11,511 nt of DNA from a virus (Duplodnaviria; Heunggongvirae; Uroviricota; Caudoviricetes): positions 1 to 11,511 of IMG/VR virus record IMGVR_UViG_2579778919_000009, one strand, 5' to 3'. Of the stretch, positions 1 through 11,511 are shown piece after piece. The notes beneath the pieces are model-generated. The model was not told the DNA's origin and ran no database searches. It saw only the letters and a program-made list of their open reading frames with translations. Both the position numbers and the translations under genes were made by a program. The stretch's first letter is position 1. Each line of letters opens with the position of its first letter.

Positions 1-495
1 GTGTCTGATTCTATGAGTTACGCTGTGCTAGTTGCCGCAACTCTATTTATGGGGATAGGGTTGCAGATTGCGTGGTTCTTTTTTTCTAGTTTTATTAAAC
101 GCAAAAGAATTGAATCAAGGATATCTGAGATTTCTATTGCTATAGGGAAAAATGCTGAAAATCCAGAGAATGAGGCCTGCGCACTGAATTACCTTAAAGA
201 AAAGTTTTCCCCTGAAAAATTTGAAAATAGAATTACTGATGCTCTTGGATTGGTAATATCAGTAATTCATATGCCACTAAGTTTGCTGATAACAGTGTGG
301 TACTTCGCCATGATCGCCGGAAGAATATTTGGTTTCATGAATATAGAGCCTGTAGTTCTTTGGGTTCCAATGATACTGCAACTGTTGTTAAGCGTTGCTA
401 TCTTTATTTTTTCTGTTTTTATAAAAATTGTCTTTGGAAGATACCCCGGAGAAGCTAAGGGATTTAATAAAGAATTCATAAAAACTATAAAATAA
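1..495 (+). CDS. Small AT-rich integral membrane protein (about 3 predicted TM helices); 5' end at or beyond window edge; possible moron / superinfection-exclusion-type gene
   Basis: ORF open from base 1 (GTG; first ATG at 13) to TAA at 493-495. Hydrophobic stretches [76 protein letters not shown]. Visibly AT-rich compared with the rest of the window. Convergent with the 613-aa virion protein gene. No family recognised by eye. Confidence 0.5.
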
Positions 496-517
496 ATGCC
501 GTCCTTGGCTTACAGTG

Positions 518-2359
518 CTACTGCCGGGTCGCTTCGTTAGCTAAGAGCGGGCGCACGGCAGTAGCAGCCTGATTTAGCGCTCTTTCATAAGCTGGCGTTC
601 CAGCTTTAGTGTTTGCCAGACGTAAGAGCGCATTCCTTGCTGCTTTGGACTCATACAAACGCATCATTGCACCAAAACCAGCCTCAAGCCCCATTGATAC
701 TCCAAGAGTCGCAGTTGCGCCAATCGTCCTTATCCTGTTGGCTTGTGATTGCCCCGTCTGAGTTACTACATTTGCGGTGTCTGACCTTGCTGTTTGCTGT
801 AGAACTTCATGAAGAGCATCGAGCTCTTTCATGTGCTTTCCAGAAAAAATAGTGTTGTAAATTTCACCGCCTGACTGAGATTTAAGCTTATTAACTTCAG
901 TGATGAACTTGGCTGGAGAGTCACCGGCCTTTTCCGCTATTTTGCTGACGTAAGCTGCACGCATAGCATCTTTCCCTTTATCATCCAATGCGCTCCAGAT
1001 TCGTTTCACGTCAGATGGTTTTCTGCTTAATACAACGGTATTTATAAGTTCAGGACTGGCTTCACTGCTTGCCTTGTTGAGCTTGTTAGCAATGTTTTTA
1101 TTAAGCACCTTATTATAAACGTTTGCATAATCTGAATTTGCTTTAAGGTATTTTGCTGCGTCTGATGCACCGAGGTTTTTAGCAACTGCGTTACGAAGGT
1201 CTTTTGACATTGCATTCTCTACCATATTGGTAGCTGCTTTTGCCTGGTTGGGGAAGACCATAGCATCTCCCTGAACATTAGATCTAAATGCTGTTCTGTG
1301 CTGACGCAAGAGATCAAACGTAACATCCAAATCAGTTGCAGGGTTTGCTAATTCTTCGCGTAGGTTACGCAAGGATGTAAGCAGGCTTTGATTGGCAGAC
1401 GTCCCAAGCCGTTCCTGTCTTGCGATCGCTGTATTCAGAGCATTCATAGTGTTTGTGGTATCAACTGCGGCATTCCCCATTTTATTGGTGACGTCATTGA
1501 TAACAGCGCCAGCGGCATCCTTCCGTCCCCTTAACGTGGTGGTCAGAGATTTCACCACATCATCCGGGTTGTACTCACCAAAACGGTCAAAATAATTACT
1601 TACCAACTTACTACGCGTTGCATATTGCTCCGCTCGCTTTGAGCCTGTCCCGAGCAAAGCCCCCTCGGCATCCTGAGTAAGGCCGCGAGTGAAAGCATTT
1701 TTCGGCGGGATAACATCAGATGTCATTGGTGTCACGCCCATCGATTCTGATGTGGCAATTTTCTTCGCCACTTCTGGCGCAATATCACCTTTTATAGCCG
1801 TTATTCCACGCCCTATTCCCTTTGCTGCTGCGGAAAGAACCCCCTGAGCGGCAAGGTTAACTCCGGCATTTTTAGCTGCATTTTGTGCGAAATCGCCTTT
1901 CTGATTTGCGGCCTCTGCCAGTGATCCAATAGCCATGCTTCCTGCCGTTCCAACTCCTGGAACTAAATACCCACCAATTGTTTCACCGGCTTGTGCGTAT
2001 GGGTCTGTCGGTCTGTCTACTGGACGATAAACATCATCCAAAACCTTGGGTCCACCAAGCCCCTGACTGATTGCATTAATCAGACTTGCGCCGCCCTGCA
2101 ATACGTCAAATGGTATGTTTACCAGACCACGACCAGCCTGCTCTGCAATTTGCCCTGCACTTTGACCACCTGTGAGCCAATCGCCAGCTTGTTGCATCAA
2201 TGATGGTTCTTCACGTGCTGGTTCATTATTGGCCTGATTAACTGTTTGTTGCTGAACAGCCTGACCAGCAAAATACTCATCAATGGCGGTGCCAATATCT
2301 TCCGTGCTCGTACCATCAGGGAAGGTAAATGTCTTACCGTTTGCAGTTACTTTCATCAT
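518..2359 (-). CDS. Phage internal virion / DNA-ejection (DNA transfer) protein, P22 gp16-like, 613 aa
   Basis: Long ORF rich in Ala/Gly/Gln/Asn with a Gly/Ala-rich segment ([23 protein letters not shown]...). Size and position (after a gp20-like segment, before a small membrane protein gene) match the P22 gene 20 - gene 16 arrangement. Start ATG overlaps the upstream stop (ATGA), suggesting translational coupling. Family assignment is from memory, not a search. Confidence 0.6.
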
Positions 2360-3933
2360 TCCACCGTAAATTGAATGCCTGATTTTGAGGTATATGATCC
2401 GGATTGACTCTGCTGCTGTTGGGTATTTGTCGGTTGTTGGCTATTGCTCTGTTGTTGACTATTTGCAACACTTGAAACCACCAAAGCATCATAAACGCGA
2501 CCAGACTGACCACGTAATGAGTTATATTGGCCCTGCATTTTTCGCATTTTTGTTTCAGTAGCAGCCTTGGAATCACCAGGCTGAGGCAGGTACATTTTGG
2601 AATACTCCTGCATCTCTGGCAGAGTAATTGCTGCACCTGTTTCTGGGCGCAAAATTGCATACAAGGCGTCTCTCGCATTTACCATATATTGCTGCTCCGC
2701 TGGTGATAGGCTTAAATTTGCAATAGTCCCATCACCAAGAGAGCGATTTATTAATGCAACTCGCTTAGGGTCAATGCTTTTACTAAGCTGATTCATTGAG
2801 TCCATTGAATCTTTTAATCGCAAAGCAAATCCTGCCGCCTTCTTGGAACCCTCATTAGCCTTATCTATGATGCTTTGCGCTTGTGGCAAACTAATTGGTT
2901 TAATGCCATCACCAGATATAGGTTGGTTTAGTTTTCCGGCTTCCTCGCTGCCATCGGTGTAATACTTAGTTACCGAGCCATCAGGATTGGTTTCAACCTT
3001 AAGTAATTTCTTAGCATTGGGATTAATTCCCGCCGCTGCCGCAAATGCCGCTGCACCATCTGGATCCGCCTTTAACATTTGCGCGTACTGATTGTAATTC
3101 TGCATTGCGGCTGTTGGTGCATATGCTGACGTTAACGCATTTGCTCGGCTAATATCCTGCCCTCTCGCCTGAAGTGCTTCGCTGGCCTGATTGCTGCGGA
3201 TTGTCTCTGCCAGTCTGCCTCGGTCAATCTCACGACCAGCTATCTTGTCCTGAACAGCAAACGCCTTTTCTGGCCCAAGTGCACCGAGAGACATAGTAGT
3301 CAGCATGTGTGATAGCTGCTCTGGATTCTGGATACCTGTCTGAATCATCCAGTCAGCATTAGCCCCCACACGATTTAACCTGTCCTTGTTGTCAGTAATG
3401 AATTTACTGTAGGCTTCCGGTCCCTGAGAAAGAGCGACGTTAGCCCTCATGGCTAAATCGCCCATATCGTTGCGTTGCTGCTCATTAAGACCGGAAAACG
3501 CCTGTTGTGCCTGTGCAACAAACGCTGGATTTCCAGATCTGATACTGAGAACGTTTCGTCCAGCAACTGGAGAGAGTTCGACGGTGGCATCATTGCCCAT
3601 GCCGGAGGCGCTGGAGGTTTCGGCTGAGGATGGCACAGGGCATTTTCCTTTGACGAGCACCCTGCCACCATTATCAAGCTTGCGCCGAAGAGCATCATTT
3701 TCAGCTTTCGCATCAGCTAACTCCTTCGTGTATTTAGCATCGAGTGCATCAGCATCACGCTGGCGCTGCTGCATGTCAGTAATGGTGGCAGTCGCCTGCT
3801 TCAGCTCACTGACTTTTTTATCACGCTGCTCTTTGTAGGCGATGGCATTATCACGGTAATGATTGACCGCCCATGACAGGCAGACGATGATGCAGATAAC
3901 CAGAGCGGAGATAATCGCGGTGACTTTGCTCAT
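2356..3933 (-). CDS. Chimeric ORF: Rz-type i-spanin N-terminus (about 120 aa) fused in frame to about 400 aa of ejection-protein-like sequence (P22 gp20-like)
   Basis: N-terminus [30 protein letters not shown]...[19 protein letters not shown] closely matches lambda Rz as I recall it (TM anchor plus coiled coil). Rz is about 150 aa, but this ORF runs on for 525 aa with Ala/Gln/Asn/Ser-rich sequence and no Rz-like C-terminus. Rz start overlaps the R stop (ATGA). Confidence 0.6.
3453..3713 (-). CDS. Rz1-type o-spanin lipoprotein embedded in the +1 frame of Rz; C-terminus extended/altered by the same junction
   Basis: [22 protein letters not shown]... has a lipobox-like signal (VAGC) followed by a proline-rich [16 protein letters not shown] segment, as in lambda Rz1. 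It is 86 aa against about 60 for lambda Rz1; the tail after about residue 55 is unrelated. Confidence 0.55.
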
Positions 3934-4268
3934 ACCTCAACCTCTCTGACCGTTCCGCCTGCTTCTTTGAATTTTGCAATCAGGCTGTCAGCCTTATGCT
4001 CGAACTGACCATAACCAGCGCCCGGCAGTGAAGCCCAGATATTACTGCAACGGTCGATAGCCTGACGGATATCACCGCGATCAATCATCGGTAAAGCGCC
4101 ACGCTCTTTAATCTGCTGCAGTGCCACAGCGTCCTGGCTTTTCGGAGAGAAGTCTTTCAGTCCAAGCTGCTTACGGTAGGCATCCCACCAACGGGAAAGA
4201 AGCTGGTAACGTCCGGCGGCTGTTGATTTGAGTTTACAGGCATAACCCTGTACAACATCAGGAGGCAT
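3930..4268 (-). pseudogene. R: Endolysin R (lambda-type lytic transglycosylase) C-terminal fragment; N-terminal about 55 residues including the catalytic region missing
   Basis: KLKSTAAGRYQLLSRWWDAYRKQLGLKDFSPKSQDAVALQQIKERGALPMIDRGDIRQAIDRCSNIWASLPGAGYGQFEHKADSLIAKFKEAGGTVRE is near-identical to the C-terminal about 100 aa of lambda R from memory. The first 11 codons (MPPDVVQGYAC) are unrelated and are encoded by the sequence that forms the upstream/RBS region of the opposite-strand replication gene. Confidence 0.85.
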
Positions 4269-4273
4269 CCAGT

Positions 4274-5101
4274 ATGGGGTATGTCTCTATACACCGCCAG
4301 TTTATGGACAGCAGGCTCTATAAGGACTCTCAGGCAGTACATCTTTGGCTTCACTTAATCCTCAAGGCTAATCACGAATCTACTGTCGTCAATACGGATA
4401 TCGGTCCGATAACTGTTGATCGCGGTCAGATGATAACTGGACGCCCGTCGCTGGTCAGAGAAACATTCATCCCCGACAACAAAGTTCGGAGCTTATTACG
4501 GACTTTTGAGTCGAAAGGTATGCTTAATATTTGCTCGATGGGGAAGAAATTTAGCCTGTTTACAATCGTTAAATATGACGATTTTCAGGCAAAAAATTGT
4601 CCAACGGTTGTCCAACAGTTGTCCAACGCAAACACCAGTAATGGTGCGGCTCTCAGCGGAGATTGTCCAACGGTTGTCCAACGGTTGTCCATAAACAATA
4701 ATATAAATAATATCTCTAATACTGACGTATTAGAGAGTGCTACAGCAGACAAAAAGTCTGACAAGAAAAAACCTTCCGTCAGCTGTCAGGATGTTGTCGA
4801 TGCTTACCACGAAATCCTTCCTGAAGCGCCAAGAATCCGCGCACTGAATGACAAGCGTAAAAACCAGATCCGAACGTTCTGGCGCAAAGCCGGAGTGATA
4901 ACCCGCCAGCTTGACGGGCATGGGTTCACGATGCAGGACTGGAGAAATTATTTGAGCTACGTAGGCGAAAATTGCCGATGGATGTTCGAAGAGCGTCCAA
5001 ACCATCAACGCGGAACTGTCTGGCACAAAAAGGGATTTGATTTCCTGCTTAACGATAATACCTACCTGAAAGTTCGTGAGGGTGAACACGATGACCGATA
5101 A
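4274..5101 (+). CDS. Replication initiator protein (lambda O / P22 gp18 functional class) with origin iterons inside its coding sequence
   Basis: Good RBS (GGAGG about 8 nt upstream of ATG 4274). Origin-type iterons and an AT-rich region sit mid-gene, as in lambda O. The stop overlaps the start of the downstream helicase gene. Confidence 0.7.
   Translation: MGYVSIHRQFMDSRLYKDSQAVHLWLHLILKANHESTVVNTDIGPITVDRGQMITGRPSLVRETFIPDNKVRSLLRTFESKGMLNICSMGKKFSLFTIVKYDDFQAKNCPTVVQQLSNANTSNGAALSGDCPTVVQRLSINNNINNISNTDVLESATADKKSDKKKPSVSCQDVVDAYHEILPEAPRIRALNDKRKNQIRTFWRKAGVITRQLDGHGFTMQDWRNYLSYVGENCRWMFEERPNHQRGTVWHKKGFDFLLNDNTYLKVREGEHDDR
4597..4695. repeat. Origin iterons: two clusters of three tandem 11-bp repeats (TTGTCCAACGG / TTGTCCAACAG / TTGTCCAACGC, then TTGTCCAACGG x2 and a degenerate TTGTCCATAAA)
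   Basis: Direct tandem repeats read at about 4597-4629 and 4663-4695, separated by about 33 bp. They encode the repetitive linker CPTVVQQLSN...CPTVVQRLS of the initiator. Confidence 0.75.
4696..4740. other. AT-rich putative DNA-unwinding region with short palindrome CTCTAATA-N6-TATTAGAG next to the iterons
   Basis: Sequence ATAAACAATAATATAAATAATATCTCTAATACTGACGTATTAGAGAG lies immediately downstream of the iterons, the typical lambdoid ori layout. Confidence 0.5.
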
Positions 5102-6146
5102 TTTTTATGCGCCGCCCCATAGCATCGAGGCAGAGCAGGCGGTGATTGGTGGATTGCTTCTGGATGATGACAGCAGTGAGCGCGTCCAGAAGGTTCTGGC
5201 GATGCTGAAGCCTGATTCATTTTACAGCCGGCCACACAAAATCCTTTTCGAAGAAATAACCAGAATGCACCGGGAGCAAAAGCCAGTAGATGGCCTGACG
5301 CTTTTCGATGAACTGGAGCGTAAATCGTTAACTGTGTCTGTTGGCGGTTTTGCTTATATCGCTGAGATCGCAAAGAACACGCCAAGCGCAGCAAACATCG
5401 TTGCCTATGCAATGCAGGTTCGTGAAACCGCAATGGAACGCTACGCCATCAACCGTATGACTGAAGCGACGGAATTGCTCTATTCCCGCAACGGAATGAC
5501 TGCAACGCAGAAGTACGAAGCTATTCAGTCGATTTTCACGCAACTGACAGACCATGCAAAAACCGGATCGCGTCGCGGCCTTCGTTCATTTGGTGAGGTC
5601 ATGGAAGACTGGGTTAGCGACCTTGAGAAGCGATTTGACCCGTCAGGCGAACAACGAGGAATGAGCACAGGGATCCCATCGCTGGACAGGATGCTGTCAC
5701 CGAAAGGTCTGGTGAAAGGCTCTCTGTTTGTCATTGGCGCTCGCCCTAAGATGGGGAAAACGACGCTATACAGCCAGATGGCAATCAACTGCGCAGTGCA
5801 TGAGAAAAAGCCCGCTCTGATGTTCAGCCTTGAAATGCCAGGTGACCAGATACTGGAAAAACTGGTAGGGCAGAAGTCTGGTGTTAACCCGAATATTTTT
5901 TACCTTCCGGCGACAAATGACGCTGATGACGGCTATCAGGGTGATTACGATGGTGACTTCAACAGGGCGATCGAAACAGCCAATCGCTTGAGTGAAATCG
6001 ACCTGCTTTACATCGACGACACGCCGGGATTATCTCTGGCTCAAATCGTCAGCGAAAGTCGTCGAATCAAGCGAGAAAAAGGATGTGTTGGCATGATTCT
6101 GGTCGATTACAGGGAGAAGGCGCATGAGACTCGAAAGCGTAGCTAA
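5091..6146 (+). pseudogene. DnaB-family replicative helicase (P22 gp12 class), C-terminal about 110-120 aa missing
   Basis: N-terminal DnaB signature NFYAPPHSIEAEQAVIGGLLLD, Walker A GARPKMGKTT, Walker B-like MILVDY. The ORF stops about 10 codons after Walker B, with an unrelated tail (REKAHETRKRS) that overlaps the Q start region. Likely true start is ATG 5091 (the ORF track starts at 5076). Confidence 0.7.
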
Positions 6147-6603
6147 ATTTCATTCGCCAAAAAGCCCGATGATTAGCGACTCACCACGGGCTACAGCTTC
6201 TGACTCTCTTTCCGGTACTGATGTGATGGCTGCTATGGGGATGGCACAATCACAGGCCGGATTCGGGATGGCTGCATTTTGCGGTAAGCACGAACTCAGC
6301 CAGAACGACAAACAAAAGGCTATCAACTATCTGATGCAATTTGCACACAAGGTATCGGGGAAATACCGTGGTGTGGCAAAGCTCGAAGGAAATACTAAGG
6401 CAAAGGTACTGCAAGTGCTCGCAATATTCGCTTATGAGGATTATTGCCGTAGTGCCGCGACGCCGGGTGCAAGATGCAGAGATTGCCACGGTACAGGCCG
6501 TGCGGTTGATATAGCCAAAACGGAGCAGTGGGGGAGAGTTGTTGAGAAAGAGTGCGGAAGATGCAAAGGTGTCGGCTATTCAAGAATGCCAGCAATCAGC
6601 TAA
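6124..6603 (+). pseudogene. Q: Late-gene antiterminator Q (lambda Q type), C-terminal about 50 aa missing/replaced
   Basis: MRLESVAKFHSPKSPM...CRDCHGTGRAVDIAKTEQWGRVVEKECGRCKGVGYSRMP matches lambda Q from memory, including the CxxC...CxxC zinc motif. It ends after about 159 aa (lambda Q is about 207). No PR'/qut or holin follows. Confidence 0.75.
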
Positions 6604-6776: not shown

Positions 6777-6853
6777 GTAGATTGATCCAGTAATGACCTC
6801 AGAATTGCATATCAATTTGCTTAAAATCCTCGGTGGCGGCCGGGGATTTTTTC
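6777..6853 (+). ncRNA. oop: oop-like antisense RNA overlapping the 3' end of cII, ending in an intrinsic terminator
   Basis: GTAGATTGATCCAGTAATGACCTCAGAATTGCAT...CCTCGGTGGCGGCCGGGGATTTTTTC closely resembles lambda oop RNA as I recall it (the block GATCCAGTAATGACCTCAGAA appears identical). Terminal hairpin CCUCGG/CCGGGG plus U-tract. Antisense to the last about 18 codons of cII. Confidence 0.7.
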
Positions 6854-7095
6854 TTTGTGATTCCATCCAATGCATACTTAAAAGCCCTGCTAATCGGACT
6901 GATGTCTGATGCCATTCCGAAAGCACACAAGACCGAAGCAATAAACCTCCAGTCCGTTCTGCTTATCTTCGATTCATGACAGCCAATCATCTTTGCCAGA
7001 CCGCGCTGGGTAAGCGTTGACAGGTTGATGAGTAAATCAGTTTCAGCGCGATCAATTTCTCGCTGTGTTGGCTTGCTATAACTTGCTTGTGTCAT
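6799..7095 (-). CDS. cII: CII-family transcriptional activator
   Basis: HTH region (LAKMIGCHESKISRTDWRFI) and C-terminus (KKKSPAATEDFKQIDMQF) resemble lambda CII (KSQISRWKRDWI, NKKRPAATERSEQIQMEF). Sits downstream of cro and nutR, as in lambdoid phages. Confidence 0.8.
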   Translation of the reverse strand: MTQASYSKPTQREIDRAETDLLINLSTLTQRGLAKMIGCHESKISRTDWRFIASVLCAFGMASDISPISRAFKYALDGITKKKSPAATEDFKQIDMQF

Positions 7096-7232: not shown

Positions 7233-7433
7233 TTATGCAGTTGTTTTTTTGTTACTTGGGAAGGGCTTTATTTCTTCCGCATAAACGCTTCCATCAGCGT
7301 TTATAGTTAAAAAAATCTTTCGGCCTGCATGAATGGCCTTGTTAATCGCGCTTTGATATACGCCGAGATCTTTAGCCGTCTTGGTTTGCCCAAAGCGTAT
7401 TGCATAATCTTTCAGGGTTATGCGTTGTTCCAT
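7233..7433 (-). CDS. cro: Cro repressor
   Basis: 66-aa product [66 protein letters not shown] is essentially lambda Cro (one or two substitutions, from memory). Confidence 0.95.
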
Positions 7434-8247
<814 letters not shown>

Positions 8248-8278
8248 TTGTTTTATTTTTCACGTAATAGGATGATTT

Positions 8279-8620
8279 ATGACACAATTTCAACTTGCAT
8301 TAATCGCTAGAGAAGTTGATGGAGAAGTCATCCATCTTCGCACCAAAGACGGATACATCAATGCCACCGCGATGTGCAAGTCTGCGGGGAAGCTACTTGC
8401 TGACTATACACGACTAAAAACAACACAAGATTTTTTTGATGAATTATCACGCGATATGGGGATTCCCATATCGGAGTTAATTCAATCATTTAAAGGCGGA
8501 AGAGCAGAGAATCAAGGGACTTGGGTTCATCCAGACATCGCAATTAATTTAGCTCAGTGGCTATCTCCAAAATTTGCAGTGCAAGTATCGAGATGGGTGC
8601 GTGAGTGGATGTCAGGTTAA
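8279..8620 (+). CDS. KilA-N domain protein (113 aa) in the rexA/rexB position, co-transcribed with cI
   Basis: YINATAMCKSAGK...ENQGTWVHPDIAINLAQWLSPKFAVQVSRWV fits the KilA-N domain pattern as I recall it. SD AGGATGA upstream of the ATG; only about 31 nt separate it from the cI stop, with no terminator between. Confidence 0.65.
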   Translation: MTQFQLALIAREVDGEVIHLRTKDGYINATAMCKSAGKLLADYTRLKTTQDFFDELSRDMGIPISELIQSFKGGRAENQGTWVHPDIAINLAQWLSPKFAVQVSRWVREWMSG

Positions 8621-8659
8621 AGAGCGCCTGCCGAACTCCCTATCCACCTTAAGCGGTAT

Positions 8660-8965
8660 ATGACAAACCGAGGCAGAGTTCCTCATACGCACTTTTCTAT
8701 GCTTAATGAACTGACGTTTAACTTGGTTGCGCCACTTGAACAGGCCGGATATACGCTGCCAGAAAAAATGGTCCCTGATATTTCAGAGGGTAGGGTTTTC
8801 TCGCAATGGCTCCGTGACAACCGGGGGGTTGAGCCGAAGACATTCCCAACATATAACCATGAGTACCCAGATGGCCGGACATTCCCGGTACGTCTATACC
8901 CAAACGAATATTGCAGATTTCAAACAATACTTCAACGAAGTGTGGCTGCCTCAGTACGCTCCTAA
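8660..8965 (+). CDS. Hypothetical protein, in the same frame as the KilA-N ORF and separated from it by a single TAA; probable frameshift near 8890-8910, after which the alternative frame continues to 9038
   Basis: 8279 and 8660 are in the same frame, with 13 sense codons and one TAA (8618-8620) between them. Weak RBS before 8660. The overlapping ORF 8727..9038 has a protein-like C-terminus (NIADFKQYFNEVWLPQYAPKYFAERDQRALTLIEKIML). Confidence 0.45.
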   Translation: MTNRGRVPHTHFSMLNELTFNLVAPLEQAGYTLPEKMVPDISEGRVFSQWLRDNRGVEPKTFPTYNHEYPDGRTFPVRLYPNEYCRFQTILQRSVAASVRS

Positions 8966-9047
8966 ATATTTTGCTGAACGAGACCAAAGGGCATTGACGT
9001 TGATTGAGAAAATCATGCTACCTGACCTTGATTCCTAAATGTTATTC

Positions 9048-9073
9048 CCGGCCACAGAGCCGGGTTTTCTTTG
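9048..9073 (+). terminator. Intrinsic terminator closing the cI / KilA-N operon
   Basis: CCCGGC-CACAGA-GCCGGG hairpin (6-bp GC stem) followed by TTTTCTTT, about 10 nt after the 9038 stop. Confidence 0.7.
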
Positions 9074-9112
9074 CCTCACGATCCCCCTCACCCAAGAACA
9101 CATAACCAATTG

Positions 9113-9138
9113 TATCTATTTGAAAATAAATAGATACA
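9113..9138. repeat. Perfect 10-bp inverted repeat GTATCTATTT-N6-AAATAGATAC between the terminator and OL3
   Basis: Read directly; AT-rich, so more likely a protein-binding site than a terminator. Confidence 0.6.
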
Positions 9139-9225
9139 ACTCACTAAACATAGCAGTTCAGATCTCTCACCTACCAAACAATGCACCCCTGCAAAAAATA
9201 AATTCATATAAAAAACATACAGATA

Positions 9226-9295
9226 ACCATCTGCGGTGATGAATTATCTCTAGCGGTGTTGACATAAATACCACTGGCGGTGATACTAAACACAT
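9226..9295 (+). promoter_or_regulatory. Left operator OL3-OL2-OL1 with PL promoter (-35 TTGACA, -10 GATACT), transcribing rightward in this window
   Basis: TATCTCTAGCGGTGTTGACATAAATACCACTGGCGGTGATACTAAACACATCAGCAGGACGCAC is near-identical to lambda PL/OL1/OL2 from memory. An OL3-like site AACCATCTGCGGTGA lies about 20 bp upstream. Confidence 0.9.
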
Positions 9296-9355
9296 CAGCA
9301 GGACGCACTACTCACCAGGGCGGTGAATATACAACGATTCAAATATGAATCTACG

Positions 9356-9370: not shown

Positions 9371-9498
9371 AATAACCAAAGTGAACTTTGGGGTGAATGC
9401 AGAAGCTAACCTTCTCGGCGGAGGCGCTTTGCAATGATTACGCTACCGGAGTTAGTCGCCCGGCTGTATTCACCGCCAAAGTTCACCAGGAGGTCTAT

Positions 9499-9666
9499 AT
9501 GACACGCAGAACTCAGTTCAAAGGCAATTCACGTTCTCGTCGTCGTGAGCGTTTAAAGGCAAAGGCATTAGCTAACGGCGTACTGGCCCGCGAAGAAGCA
9601 ATAAGTTCAGAAGTATTACACCGCCCTACGCCATCATCAATGTTGCGGCGATCGGCATCACCTTAA
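9499..9666 (+). pseudogene. N-type antiterminator, N-terminal arginine-rich motif retained (about 35-40 codons), remainder lost at a deletion junction
   Basis: Strong SD (CAGGAGG) before ATG 9499. MTRRTQFKGNSRSRRRERLKAKA resembles the P22 gp24 arginine-rich motif (GNAKTRRHERRRKLAIER, from memory). Only 55 codons against about 100 for N proteins; the 3' part overlaps the RecT frame. Confidence 0.55.
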
Positions 9667-10364
9667 ACCCAGCCAGCAAACTTGCTTATCTAGTTCCGCG
9701 CGACGGCATGGTTTGCCTTGATATCAGTTATATGGGATTGCTCCATATTGCAATGGAGTCTGGTGTTATCTCATGGGGTCAGGCAAAACTTGTTCATGCT
9801 AACGATACCTATGAGTCAAACGGGCTTGATAAAGCACCAACCCATAAATACAACGCCTTCGGTGATCGTGGTGATATCGTTGGCGTTTACTGCACAGTTA
9901 AGACGCCAGCAGGTGATTATCTAACGGAAGAGATGAGTCTGGCTGAAATTGAGGCTGTAAGGAAAACAAGCAAGGCGGCATTCAGCGATAAAGGACCATG
10001 GGTAAATCACTGGAATGAGATGGCGCGAAAGACGGTCGTAAAGCGTGCAAGCAAGTATTGGCCTAAGGCATCACGTCTTGATAGTGCTATTCACGTACTA
10101 AACGAAGAAGAAGGTGTATGGACTGAACCAGTTATGCCGTACAAATCAGAGGAAGATATCCGCGAAGATGAACGGAAACGCCAGCAGGAAATAACGGATA
10201 AAGCACAACTTCTTTGTGATGAAATGGCTCAGGCAGAAAACATGGATGATTTGAAGCGATATTTTGCAGAAGCATATCGCCTGACATCTGGAATGAAATT
10301 GCAGCATAACGTACAAGCCATTTACATAGAATGCAAAGCGAAACTGGAGGTTGCCAGTGAGTAA
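9576..10364 (+). pseudogene. recT: RecT-family single-strand annealing protein lacking about 50-60 N-terminal residues and any start/RBS of its own
   Basis: Frame open from 9576. ...YAIINVAAIGITLNPASKLAYLVPRDG... and KGPWVNHWNEMARKTVVKRASKYWPKA align to E. coli RecT (FVSAIVQCSQLGLEPGSALGHAYLLPFGN; GPWVTHWEEMAKKTAIRRLFKYLP). First in-frame Met is at 9708. Confidence 0.75.
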
Positions 10365-10839
10365 ACTATATGAAATAGCCAATGAATACGCAAAATTGAT
10401 GGATTCAGATTTAGAGCCAGAGATGATTGCTGACACAATAGAAGGCATGGAAGGAGAATTTACCGATAAAATAGAGCAACTTCTTTCCGTCATTAAAAAT
10501 GAATCTGGTTATGCTGAACGCCTCAAGGAAGAGGCAAAGTCACTGAATGAGCGAGCCGCAGTAATTCAAAATAAGATTGACAGCATCATATCATATATAG
10601 CGTCATCGCTTGAAATGGTAGGCAAGAAAAAGATTAGAGCAGGTATTCACCAGGTAACAATCCGCAAACCGTCAGAAATTGTAGAAATAATCGACTCAAG
10701 CGCCCTTCCTCCTGAATACGTTGAGTTTGAAACAACAATTAAAGCCGACAAACTGGCAATCAAACACCAACTAAAAGCAGGAATAAATATCCCCGGCGCT
10801 CAACTCAAAGTTGGGAAACCTTCACTTCTTATCAAATAA
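10351..10839 (+). CDS. Siphovirus Gp157-family protein (recombination-module accessory protein)
   Basis: LYEIANEYAKLMDS...DTIEGMEGEFTDKIEQL...GKKKIRAGIHQVTIRKPSEIVEIIDSSALPPEYVEF...LKAGINIPGAQLKVGKPSLLIK fits the Gp157 family pattern as I recall it. Probable start is GTG 10357 (GGAGG 6 nt upstream); it overlaps the RecT stop. Confidence 0.7.
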   Translation: MPVSKLYEIANEYAKLMDSDLEPEMIADTIEGMEGEFTDKIEQLLSVIKNESGYAERLKEEAKSLNERAAVIQNKIDSIISYIASSLEMVGKKKIRAGIHQVTIRKPSEIVEIIDSSALPPEYVEFETTIKADKLAIKHQLKAGINIPGAQLKVGKPSLLIK

Positions 10840-10850
10840 CGGTATCGCCT

Positions 10851-10985
10851 ATGAAAAAGACTCCATGGGAGAAATGGGAAGTCGATTTCTTGCGCGAAGT
10901 AGCGGCGACAAGGCCATATAACAACAAACCCTGTCGCTGCCACTCGCGCAGCAAAATCAGAGGTAAGGAGATCAAGACTTACGGC
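10851..10985 (+). other. Short remnant ORF (MKKTPWEKWEVDFLREVAATR...), 5' end of an unidentified gene running out of frame into int-derived sequence
   Basis: ATG 10851 opens a 44-codon frame. From about 10905 onward the DNA is int sequence read in a different frame. Confidence 0.25.
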
Positions 10986-11511
10986 TGACGAATACCTGAA
11001 AATTTATCAAGCAGCAGAATCATCACCATGTTGGCTCAGACTTGCAATGGAACTGGCTGTTGTTACCGGGCAGCGAGTTGGTGATTTATGCGAAATGAAG
11101 TGGTCTGATATCGTAGATGGATATCTTTATGTCGAGCAAAGCAAAACAGGCGTAAAAATTGCCATCCCAACAACATTGCATGTTGATGCTCTCGGGATAT
11201 CAATGAAGGAAACACTTGATAAATGCAAAGAGATTCTTGGCGGAGAAACCATAATTGCATCTACTCGTCGTGAACCGCTTTCATCCGGCACAGTATCAAG
11301 GTATTTTATGCGCGCACGAAAAGCATCAGGTCTTTCCTTCGAAGGGGATCCGCCTACCTTTCACGAGTTGCGCAGTTTGTCTGCAAGACTCTATGAGAAG
11401 CAGATAAGCGATAAGTTTGCTCAACATCTTCTCGGGCATAAGTCGGACACCATGGCATCACAGTATCGTGATGACAGAGGCAGGGAGTGGGACAAAATTG
11501 AAATCAAATAA
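10903..11511 (+). pseudogene. int: Integrase (lambda Int type), catalytic domain only; N-terminal arm-binding and core-binding domains deleted; no xis
   Basis: Int frame open from 10903: ...GHITTNPVAATRAAKSEVRRSRLTADEYLKIYQAAESSPCWLRLAMELAVVTGQRVGDL...HELRSLSARLYEKQ...HKSDTMASQYRDDRGREWDKIEIK. This is near-identical to lambda Int residues about 168-356 from memory and keeps the catalytic residues, but about 170 N-terminal residues are absent. Confidence 0.9.

What the first reader, a model, noticed from the sequence alone, without database searches (positions are those of the whole stretch)
8279..9075. KilA-N domain cassette sits in the rexAB slot and is co-transcribed with cI
In lambda, the genes immediately downstream of cI in the PRM operon are rexA/rexB, an exclusion system expressed in the lysogen. 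Here that slot holds a 113-aa KilA-N domain ORF and a second ORF, bounded by the same type of intrinsic terminator before OL. Anything in this slot is expressed constitutively in lysogens, so it is a prime candidate for an uncharacterised exclusion, defence or lysogenic-conversion function. KilA-N domains are otherwise poorly understood DNA-binding modules. This is the one intact-looking accessory cargo in a remnant that has kept its repressor.
Basis: partly seen in the sequence, partly recalled or inferred. Interest (0 to 1): 0.7.

Follow-up and report, generated by a model that had tools for sequence, protein, structure and literature searches.

The report
Broken BstA defence gene after cI

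Summary
A KilA-N ORF (8279-8620; Pfam E=1.7e-27) sits 31 bp after a lambda-type cI. It lies exactly where lambda carries rexA-rexB and is followed by the lambda Timm hairpin, then OL/PL.

The "113-aa ORF plus a second ORF" is one gene in pieces. Phage PhiR5_2 and E. coli D5 have a single intact 253-aa ORF in the same slot. The window copy has a GAA-to-TAA nonsense at codon 114 (8618) and a 2-bp deletion near 8911.

The intact protein is KilA-N plus BstA_C (PF26567). It matches PHROG 6287, "BstA abortive infection system", at E=1.8e-82 and the PADLOC BstA model at E=2.5e-20. A profile comparison with the BTP1 BstA family gives 97.7% probability.

BstA (Owen et al. 2021) is a characterised abortive-infection protein. 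It is encoded downstream of prophage repressors, and those authors already noted its synteny with rexAB.

So the defence interpretation is right in kind, the claim that the cargo looks intact is wrong, and the system is already known.

The same broken allele is widespread. A second, independent TAA at the same codon exists on another haplotype. That is a small unexplained curiosity.

The parts
7534..8247 (+). Intact lambda-type cI repressor (237 aa). It is the promoter-proximal gene of the PRM operon that would drive the cassette.
   Evidence: HTH_3 + Peptidase_S24. Window 7374-8248 is 96.5% identical to lambda 38100-37226.
8221..8278 (+). Cassette leader: the last ~27 nt of cI plus a 31-nt spacer with a Shine-Dalgarno AGGA at 8269-8272. 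This ~58-nt leader travels with the gene into other immunity regions. It is the region where an aba-like self-immunity element would be expected by analogy with BTP1.
   Evidence: Alignment of 14 loci with unrelated repressors shows that homology starts about 58 nt upstream of the ATG. The aba position in BTP1 (-29 to +34) is from PMC8585504. Any aba function here is inferred and was not tested.
8279..9038 (+). bstA-family pseudogene (KilA-N + BstA_C). It would encode 253 aa if repaired.
   Evidence: The intact orthologue is a single 762-bp ORF in PhiR5_2 and E. coli D5. It matches PHROG 6287 (BstA) at E=1.8e-82 over its full length and PADLOC BstA at E=2.5e-20. Homologues carry PF04383 + PF26567 BstA_C.
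8279..8620 (+). The surviving 113-aa ORF, which is the KilA-N (APSES-like) DNA-binding domain only.
8618..8620 (+). Premature stop TAA (GAA in intact alleles) at codon 114, in the linker between the two domains.
   Evidence: Alignments; translation.
8621..9038 (+). Untranslated remnant of the linker and the BstA_C domain. It is read by the mechanical ORFs 8660-8965 (frame of the gene) and 8727-9038 (+1 frame).
   Evidence: PADLOC BstA hits on both fragments, to consecutive profile positions 160-226 and 236-272. hhalign aligns the C-domain of this subfamily to BstA-BTP1 at probability 97.7%.
8910..8913 (+). Site of a 2-bp deletion (GAATATCTTGCAG -> GAATATTGCAG) that shifts the frame in BstA_C. 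It removes invariant residues F215, F219, W223, Y231 and F232 from the reading frame.
   Evidence: Alignments; family invariant columns.
9047..9074 (+). Intrinsic terminator (homologue of lambda Timm): CCCGGC-CACAGA-GCCGGG followed by TTTTCTTT. It marks the end of the cassette and of the PRM operon.
   Evidence: Terminator scan; fold at -12 kcal/mol; homology to lambda begins here; the same hairpin ends the cassette in all other contexts.
9225..9290 (+). OL operators and the PL promoter (TTGACA, 17 nt, GATACT at 9259-9287).
   Evidence: Promoter scan; 91.8% identity to lambda 35824-35550, which contains oL1-oL3.

Best explanation
Window 8279-9038 is a pseudogenised copy of a bstA-family gene. 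It encodes an N-terminal KilA-N/APSES-type DNA-binding domain fused to a BstA_C domain. The gene sits as a moron downstream of a lambda-type cI, in place of rexAB.

In its intact form (253 aa), I infer the gene is transcribed from PRM/PRE together with cI and is therefore made constitutively in lysogens. By homology to the characterised BstA proteins of BTP1, Klebsiella and E. coli, it would act as a single-protein abortive-infection system. It would go to the replicating DNA of an incoming phage and block phage DNA replication, so the infected cell dies without releasing progeny. The resident prophage would be spared by a short cognate DNA element (aba) at the 5' end of the locus.

In this window the gene is dead as a BstA. 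A nonsense codon at position 114 ends translation right after the KilA-N domain, and a 2-bp deletion further corrupts the C-terminal domain. At most a 113-aa KilA-N-only polypeptide is made.

Shown here: the anatomy, the lesions, family membership by sequence and fold, and the position of the gene. Inferred: co-transcription with cI, the Abi mechanism (taken from the literature on homologues that are ~29% identical in the C-domain), and loss of function.
For: Single gene with two lesions.

The same two lesions occur in independent assemblies. These include E. coli EC2641 and 1008S19 (100% identical), 8 of 31 IMG/VR contigs and 10 further contigs. Sequencing error is therefore excluded.

Family evidence:
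- PHROG 6287 'BstA abortive infection system, replication inhibitor': E=1.8e-82 across residues 1-252. BstA-BTP1 hits the same PHROG at E=2e-150.
- PADLOC BstA: E=2.5e-20.
- BLASTP against BstA-BTP1: 29% identity over residues 133-251, E=5e-15.
- hhalign of the two subfamilies: probability 97.7%, E=1.3e-12.
- Both subfamilies carry Pfam PF26567, named BstA_C.

Architecture evidence:
- In every close allele examined, the gene lies on the same strand directly downstream of an HTH+S24 repressor.
- At least 7 different repressor types are involved.
- This matches the defining synteny described for BstA (PMC8585504).

Slot and terminator.
Against: - No experiment has been done on this 253-aa subfamily. 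The tested BstA proteins are 297-307 aa and share only ~29% identity, in the C-domain.
- The top hhalign hit covers only the C-domain. Homology of the N-domain to the 'KilA-N-like' domain of BstA-BTP1 rests on the PHROG profile match.
- The PADLOC BstA model aligns only profile positions 149-271 of 292, so a coverage-filtered annotation pipeline might not call it.
- Outside Enterobacterales the family is mostly not next to repressors. Only 3 of 74 upstream ORFs have an S24 domain.
- No aba element could be identified by sequence.
- Co-transcription with cI is inferred from spacing and the absence of predicted signals, not from RNA data.
- The truncated allele is very common, so some residual function of the KilA-N stub cannot be excluded.
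Confidence: 0.85

Rival explanations
1. The truncated 113-aa KilA-N-only protein is itself a maintained, functional product. It might be a DNA-binding regulator, a decoy or dominant-negative that neutralises BstA of competing prophages, or one half of a split two-polypeptide BstA in alleles where the C-half is intact. On this reading the stop at codon 114 is adaptive rather than decay.
For: - The exact 113-aa product is indexed in 1970 blocks (at least 1000 contigs). The intact 253-aa protein is on 924 contigs.
- The truncated allele occurs in apparently complete prophages (L098, L100, L103, L104).
- The same GAA->TAA at codon 114 is found on two haplotypes, GGT-TAA and GGC-TAA. These differ at 22 sites, including the adjacent base. 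The GGC-TAA allele is only 5 substitutions from an intact allele.
- The stop falls exactly in the inter-domain linker. In-frame ATGs at codons 127 and 141 begin the BstA_C domain.
- Klebsiella and E. coli H5 alleles keep a full-length C-half.
- Among 21 copies of the window allele there are 0 variable sites in the N-part and 5 variable columns in the C-part.
Against: - The copies are nearly clonal, so the 0-versus-5 contrast has no statistical power. It is largely due to one low-quality assembly (strain 81, which has many frameshift flags).
- In the window allele the C-half carries a further frameshift, as expected for decay after a nonsense mutation.
- There is no good Shine-Dalgarno sequence before ATG 8660 or 8699.
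- One Klebsiella split allele has T80A at a family-invariant Thr, which suggests relaxed constraint on KilA-N as well.
- Other truncations also exist (175-176 aa), consistent with recurrent loss of a costly Abi gene.
- Two hits on the same codon could be chance among a few dozen possible one-step nonsense sites.
Confidence: 0.08
2. This is the first reader's reading: a two-gene accessory cassette (a KilA-N protein plus a separate partner protein) of uncharacterised function, intact and expressed with cI.
For: - Mechanical ORF calling gives 8279-8620 plus 8660-8965 / 8727-9038.
- RefSeq annotates the 113-aa ORF as a normal CDS.
- H5-type alleles are annotated as two CDSs.
Against: - Both 'genes' lie in one frame, separated by a single stop that is GAA in 20-21 of 31 viral contigs and in most complete E. 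coli genomes.
- The second ORF is itself split between two frames by a 2-bp deletion.
- Across 80 species the homologue is a single ~250-aa ORF.
- The function is not uncharacterised. The family is BstA.
Confidence: 0.03
3. It is a lytic-cycle KilA / antirepressor (Ant/Bro-type) gene that has been misplaced into the immunity region, not a defence gene.
For: - KilA-N domains occur in P1 KilA and in Bro/Ant-type antirepressors (established knowledge of the domain).
- PHROG 129 'transcriptional regulator' also matches the N-domain at E=8e-24.
- An 86%-identical paralogue sits in the nin/Q region of other E. coli prophages.
Against: - The C-terminal half is BstA_C. It is not an ANT, Bro-C or KilA-C domain, and Pfam reports no such hit.
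- The close alleles are always downstream of repressors and oriented with them. This is the lysogenic transcription unit.
Confidence: 0.03

Closest known systems
BstA abortive-infection system (BstA-BTP1, BstA-Ec, BstA-Kp; Owen et al. 2021, PMC8585504)
   Same: [quoted passage not shown]
- Same PHROG (6287) and same PADLOC model.
- Located immediately downstream of the prophage CI-type repressor, on the same strand, and ending in an intrinsic terminator before OL/PL and N.
- This is the slot that holds rexAB in lambda.
   Different: - The reconstructed protein is shorter (253 aa against 297-307 aa).
- Its N-domain is a canonical Pfam KilA-N (E~1e-27). BstA-BTP1 gets no Pfam KilA-N hit.
- Identity to BstA-BTP1 is only 29%, over the C-domain.
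- No aba element was recognisable. The BTP1 aba sequence and its CCCGCC repeats are absent.
- This copy is a pseudogene.
- This subfamily has not been tested experimentally.
Lambda RexA/RexB exclusion system
   Same: - Same genomic slot (between cI and Timm/OL).
- Same presumed transcription from PRM/PRE.
- Same general role: abortive infection expressed in the lysogen.
   Different: - No sequence relationship. RexAB is two proteins, a sensor and a membrane ion channel.
- BstA is one DNA-associated protein that blocks phage DNA replication (as described in PMC8585504).
Other cargo of the cI-Timm slot in wild lambda-immunity phages (HK542, HK544, mEp234/HK106; GenBank EF120455-EF120461)
   Same: - Same cI, same Timm terminator and OL.
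- The slot is a known hotspot of mosaic exchange (Degnan et al. 2007, as cited in PMC8585504).
   Different: Those phages carry other genes there: two hypothetical proteins in HK542 and in HK544, and hicAB plus one more gene in mEp234. None is a KilA-N/BstA gene.
KilA-N / APSES DNA-binding domain proteins (P1 KilA, Bro/Ant antirepressors, fungal Mbp1/Swi4)
   Different: The C-terminal partner domain and the genomic context differ. Those proteins are lytic-cycle, antirepressor or eukaryotic transcription factors.

Membership tests
BstA (prophage abortive-infection protein) | C-terminal BstA_C domain (PF26567; the C-terminal half of the PADLOC/PHROG BstA models) | tested here: met
   - Intact orthologue: PADLOC BstA E=2.5e-20 and PHROG 6287 E=1.8e-82.
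- hhalign against the BTP1 subfamily: probability 97.7%.
- Homologues carry PF26567 BstA_C.
- The window's own fragments hit PADLOC BstA profile positions 160-226 and 236-272.
- In the window the domain is split by a frameshift.
BstA (prophage abortive-infection protein) | N-terminal KilA-N(-like) DNA-binding domain | tested here: met
   - Pfam KilA-N E=1.7e-27.
- PHROG 6287 aligns residues 1-105 to profile positions 6-121.
- The top hhalign hit did not cover this domain.
BstA (prophage abortive-infection protein) | Encoded directly downstream of, and co-oriented with, the prophage repressor; ends with a terminator before the early-left operon | tested here: met
   - In the window the gene starts 31 bp after cI and Timm lies at 9047-9074.
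- The same holds for all close alleles, with at least 7 repressor types.
- It is not general for distant homologues: only 3 of 74 have an S24 repressor upstream.
BstA (prophage abortive-infection protein) | A single uninterrupted ORF encoding both domains (a functional gene) | tested here: not met
   There is a TAA at codon 114 (8618-8620) and a 2-bp deletion at 8910-8913. The window copy is a pseudogene of the family, not a functional member.
BstA (prophage abortive-infection protein) | Cognate anti-BstA (aba) DNA element overlapping the 5' end of the locus | not testable with these tools
   - aba elements are specific to each homologue and are defined functionally.
- The BTP1 aba sequence and its CCCGCC...CCCGCC repeats are absent.
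- A conserved ~58-nt leader travels with the gene, but no conserved repeat was found across diverged homologues.
BstA (prophage abortive-infection protein) | Abortive-infection phenotype: block of incoming phage DNA replication | not testable with these tools
   This needs plaque, burst and DNA-replication assays with the intact allele.
RexAB exclusion system | Homology to RexA and RexB | tested here: not met
   Lambda homology stops at the cI stop and resumes after the rexB stop. No Rex-related family appears in the Pfam, PHROG or PADLOC hits.
KilA-N antirepressor / Bro / P1 KilA type proteins | KilA-N joined to an ANT, Bro-C or KilA-C type C-terminal domain, expressed in the lytic cycle | tested here: not met
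   The C-terminal half gives no Pfam hit other than BstA_C. The context is the lysogenic repressor operon.

The most novel reading that the evidence does not exclude
The stop at codon 114 may not be simple decay. It has arisen at least twice at the same inter-domain codon. The resulting KilA-N-only product (or, in alleles with an intact C-half, a split KilA-N + BstA_C pair) may be retained because it does something useful for the prophage. For example, it could bind aba-like DNA or BstA itself and so disarm BstA-type defence of rival prophages, while removing the self-toxic effector.
Probability: 0.07. Interest if true: 0.6.

Novelty: already known. Interest (0 to 1): 0.15.

Why it matters
As it stands the finding matters little. 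It is a decayed copy of a defence gene whose family, genomic position and rexAB synteny were published in 2021, and which PHROGs, PADLOC and Pfam already catalogue.

It has three practical uses.
- Annotation: the RefSeq entry "KilA-N domain-containing protein" (113 aa) should be read as a bstA pseudogene fragment. Defence-system counts that rely on intact ORFs will miss or miscount this common allele.
- Experimental: the 253-aa canonical-KilA-N subfamily is extremely widespread, at about 55-60% identity across many bacterial phyla, yet none of its members is among the three BstA proteins tested by Owen et al. (2021). Its compact form would be a good subject for working out what BstA_C does.
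- Evolutionary: a costly abortive-infection gene has been knocked out repeatedly, twice at the same codon. That is a small natural experiment on the fitness cost of prophage-borne defence.

Tried and rejected
1. An aba-like element.
- I looked for direct and inverted repeats around the start codon, for the BTP1 aba sequence, and for CCCGCC terminal repeats.
- A 7-nt direct repeat, GAGAAGT...GAGAAGT, at +31/+43 looked interesting. So did an inverted repeat, TCAACTT/AAGTTGA. Both appeared to co-vary in the 77% paralogue.
- Neither is kept in the Hafnia, Providencia, Rouxiella or Photorhabdus homologues. I rejected both as chance or as effects at the protein level.

3. Whether the repressor-downstream architecture is general. 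Across 80 species it is not: only 3 of 74 loci have an S24 repressor upstream. It holds only for the Enterobacterales prophage alleles.

4. Selection on the truncated allele. Variable-site counts in the N-part against the C-part were 0 against 5 among 21 copies. The copies are too clonal, and one poor assembly contributes too much, for this to mean anything.

5. Rfam scan of the window: no hits.

6. Source genome. No complete E. coli genome in the collection contains the whole window. The same arrangement occurs in draft assemblies next to ybhC/ybhJ.

7. NCBIfam: no model matches the intact protein.

8. The Degnan et al. 2007 paper could not be retrieved from the library. I used only its GenBank records and its citation in PMC8585504.

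Full report
**What is in the sequence**

The window is a lambdoid prophage remnant read with the lambda map inverted. The genes are cII (6799-7095, minus strand), cro (7233-7433, minus strand) and an intact lambda-type cI (7534-8247, plus strand; HTH_3 + Peptidase_S24).

Window 7374-8248 is 96.5% identical to lambda 38100-37226. Window 9047-9326 is 91.8% identical to lambda 35824-35550. In lambda, cI is 37227-37940, rexA is 36275-37114 and rexB is 35825-36259. So window 8249-9046 (798 bp) replaces exactly the rexA-rexB segment.

Three features of the finding hold up.
- ORF 8279-8620 is a canonical KilA-N domain (PF04383, E=1.7e-27).
- A GC-rich hairpin with a T-run lies at 9047-9074. This is the lambda Timm homologue.
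- A PL-like promoter lies at 9259-9287.

No promoter-like or terminator-like site was predicted on the plus strand between cI and the ORF. An AGGA sits 6 nt before the ATG. Co-transcription with cI is therefore a reasonable inference, but it is not shown.

**One gene, not two, and broken**

The 113-aa ORF and ORF 8660-8965 lie in the same frame and are separated by a single TAA. ORF 8727-9038 is in the +1 frame.

Phage PhiR5_2 (PV340546.1) has a single 762-bp ORF after an identical-type cI, at 97% nucleotide identity over the whole segment. E. coli D5 has the same ORF, annotated WP_000191544.1.

Against these, the window has two lesions.
- G->T at 8618 (GAA->TAA, codon 114).
- A 2-bp deletion within 8910-8913.

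The window's own pieces confirm this. ORF 8660-8962 matches PADLOC BstA profile positions 160-226 (E=4e-12). The +1-frame ORF 8727-9035 matches positions 236-272 (E=8e-4).

The same two lesions are present in E. coli EC2641 and 1008S19 (100% identity), in 10 further contigs and in 8 of 31 IMG/VR contigs. They are therefore real alleles and not sequencing errors.

**What the gene is**

The intact 253-aa protein matches known BstA resources.
- PHROG 6287, "BstA abortive infection system, replication inhibitor": E=1.8e-82 over residues 1-252. BstA of Salmonella phage BTP1 hits the same PHROG at E=2e-150.
- PADLOC BstA model: E=2.5e-20 over the C-terminal half.
- BLASTP against BstA-BTP1: 29% identity over residues 133-251, E=5e-15.
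- Profile-profile comparison of 34 relatives of this protein with 32 relatives of BstA-BTP1: probability 97.7%, E=1.3e-12, for the C-domain.

Relatives of both proteins carry Pfam PF26567, which names BstA_C. Relatives of the window protein also carry PF04383 KilA-N.

**What is known about BstA**

This summary is from Owen et al. 2021 (PMC8585504).
- BstA is a prophage-encoded abortive-infection protein.
- It is encoded downstream of the cI repressor and is highly expressed in lysogens.
- It co-localises with incoming phage DNA and prevents phage DNA replication.
- The resident prophage escapes through a 63-bp DNA element, aba, which spans 29 bp upstream and the first 34 bp of bstA. The element is specific to each homologue.
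- The authors explicitly point out that the corresponding site in lambda harbours rexAB, and that the cI-N interval is a known mosaic hotspot.

A lysogen-expressed exclusion gene in the rexAB slot is, however, already established.

**Survey of the slot and of the gene's neighbours**

Other wild lambda-immunity phages carry different cargo between cI and the same Timm.
- HK542: two hypothetical proteins.
- HK544: two hypothetical proteins.
- mEp234: hicAB plus one more gene.

I examined close alleles of the gene (at least 95% nucleotide identity) in 31 viral contigs, 10 further contigs that carry the window's exact 113-aa product, and several complete E. coli genomes. Wherever an upstream ORF could be scored, the gene lies on the same strand directly after an ORF of about 230-255 aa. 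Three loci were cut short or had a degraded upstream gene. Representatives of 7 non-lambda ORF types all have an S24 peptidase domain, and six of the seven also have an HTH domain.

The unit that moves consists of three parts.
- A ~58-nt leader, which contains a degenerate relic of the last 27 nt of lambda cI.
- The gene.
- The Timm-like hairpin.

Further away the picture differs. I sampled 80 species at 53-91% identity, spanning Proteobacteria, Bacteroidota, Verrucomicrobiota and others. There the homologue is a single ORF, mostly about 250 aa, and it is rarely next to a repressor: 3 of 74 loci have an S24 ORF upstream. Its neighbours include aceK, IS elements, and restriction or Abi genes (also 42-44).

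An 86%-identical paralogue is present in 117 complete E. coli genomes and in the vB_EcoS-613R10 phages. It sits in the nin/Q region, not after a repressor.

**Allele frequencies and an oddity**

In the 31 IMG/VR loci the alleles divide as follows.
- 20 are intact over the full 253 aa. One more is unbroken but runs off the end of its contig.
- 8 carry the window's TAA plus the 2-bp deletion.
- 1 carries a TAA alone.
- 1 is truncated at 176 aa.

Among 5426 complete E. coli genomes, 24 carry a close allele. Two of them match the window's disrupted allele exactly, and most of the rest have the undeleted length of the intact gene.

In the large protein collection, the exact 113-aa product is indexed in 1970 blocks (at least 1000 contigs). 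The intact protein is on 924 contigs. The broken allele also occurs in apparently complete prophages.

The TAA exists on two haplotypes.
- GGT-TAA, the window type, is always found with the deletion.
- GGC-TAA (E. coli H5/H6, L110) has an intact C-half. It differs from the window allele at 22 sites, including the adjacent base, and is 5 substitutions from an intact allele.

Two independent hits at the inter-domain codon are the simplest reading. This could be chance. It could also be recurrent loss of a costly Abi effector. Least likely, it reflects a functional KilA-N-only or split form. The data cannot discriminate between these.

**Verdict**

The KilA-N ORF, the slot and the terminator are real. 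The claims of two ORFs and of intact-looking cargo are wrong.

The gene belongs to a defence family in the PRM operon, but that family is known and this copy is dead.

On BstA membership, the domain and synteny features are met. ORF integrity is not met. The aba element and the phenotype are not testable with these tools.

Novelty: already known. Interest is low. A small residual curiosity remains about the recurrent, widespread truncation.

Noticed in passing
window 8618-8620; L015:3381-3383; L110: The same GAA->TAA nonsense at codon 114, in the inter-domain linker, occurs on two distinct haplotypes (GGT-TAA and GGC-TAA) that differ at 22 sites. The exact 113-aa truncated product is at least as common in public assemblies (at least 1000 contigs) as the intact 253-aa protein (924 contigs).
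   Followed up: partly
window 8221-8278, and L109, L110, L112, L115, L121, L126-L128, L136, L016 upstream of the gene: The gene travels with a ~58-nt leader that contains a degenerate relic of the last 27 nt of lambda cI (GTGGCC.GA.GAG..GTTTGGGTGA), even when it sits behind unrelated repressors. It also travels with its own Timm-like hairpin. This gives a cleanly delimited moron cassette.
   Followed up: partly
window 1-6603 and 9397-11511: The remnant is heavily scrambled.
- A chimeric ORF at 2356-3933 joins an Rz-like lysis domain to a P22 gp20-type injection translocase.
- A lysozyme fragment lies at 3930-4268.
- A truncated DnaB-type helicase (5076-6146) abuts a Q-like antiterminator ORF (6124-6603).
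- N is cut to 55 aa (9499-9666) and RecT is truncated (9708-10364).
- Only the C-terminal 154 aa of a lambda-type integrase remain (11047-11511).
In assemblies with the same arrangement, the remnant abuts ybhC (pectinesterase) and ybhJ, which is the lambda attachment site.
   Followed up: partly
L002:4968-5741 (phage vB_EcoS-613R10) and 117 complete E. coli genomes: A paralogue (77% nucleotide and 86% amino-acid identity, 257 aa, intact) of the same KilA-N+BstA_C gene sits between the replication/LygF genes and Q, on the opposite strand. It is not downstream of a repressor. This is a second, different moron slot for the same defence gene.
   Followed up: partly
L017-L096 (80 species): The 250-aa KilA-N+BstA_C protein keeps 53-61% identity across very distant phyla (Proteobacteria, Bacteroidota, Verrucomicrobiota, Spirochaetia, Gracilibacteria, Nitrospirota). 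It mostly lies outside recognisable prophage immunity regions. In 8 of the surveyed loci, mostly Stenotrophomonas, it lies next to aceK.
   Followed up: partly
L139, L140, L141 (HK542, mEp234, HK544 immunity regions): The cI-Timm slot of other lambda-immunity phages holds hicAB plus one ORF (mEp234) or pairs of hypothetical proteins (HK542, HK544). These are uncharacterised cargo that may be more worth testing than the window's dead bstA.
   Followed up: no
L013 (E. coli strain 81): This copy has an extra 1-bp deletion in a G-run. Together with the 2-bp deletion, it restores the frame of the C-terminal part. The assembly has many 'frameshifted' flags, including in cI, so this may be an assembly error.
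   Followed up: no
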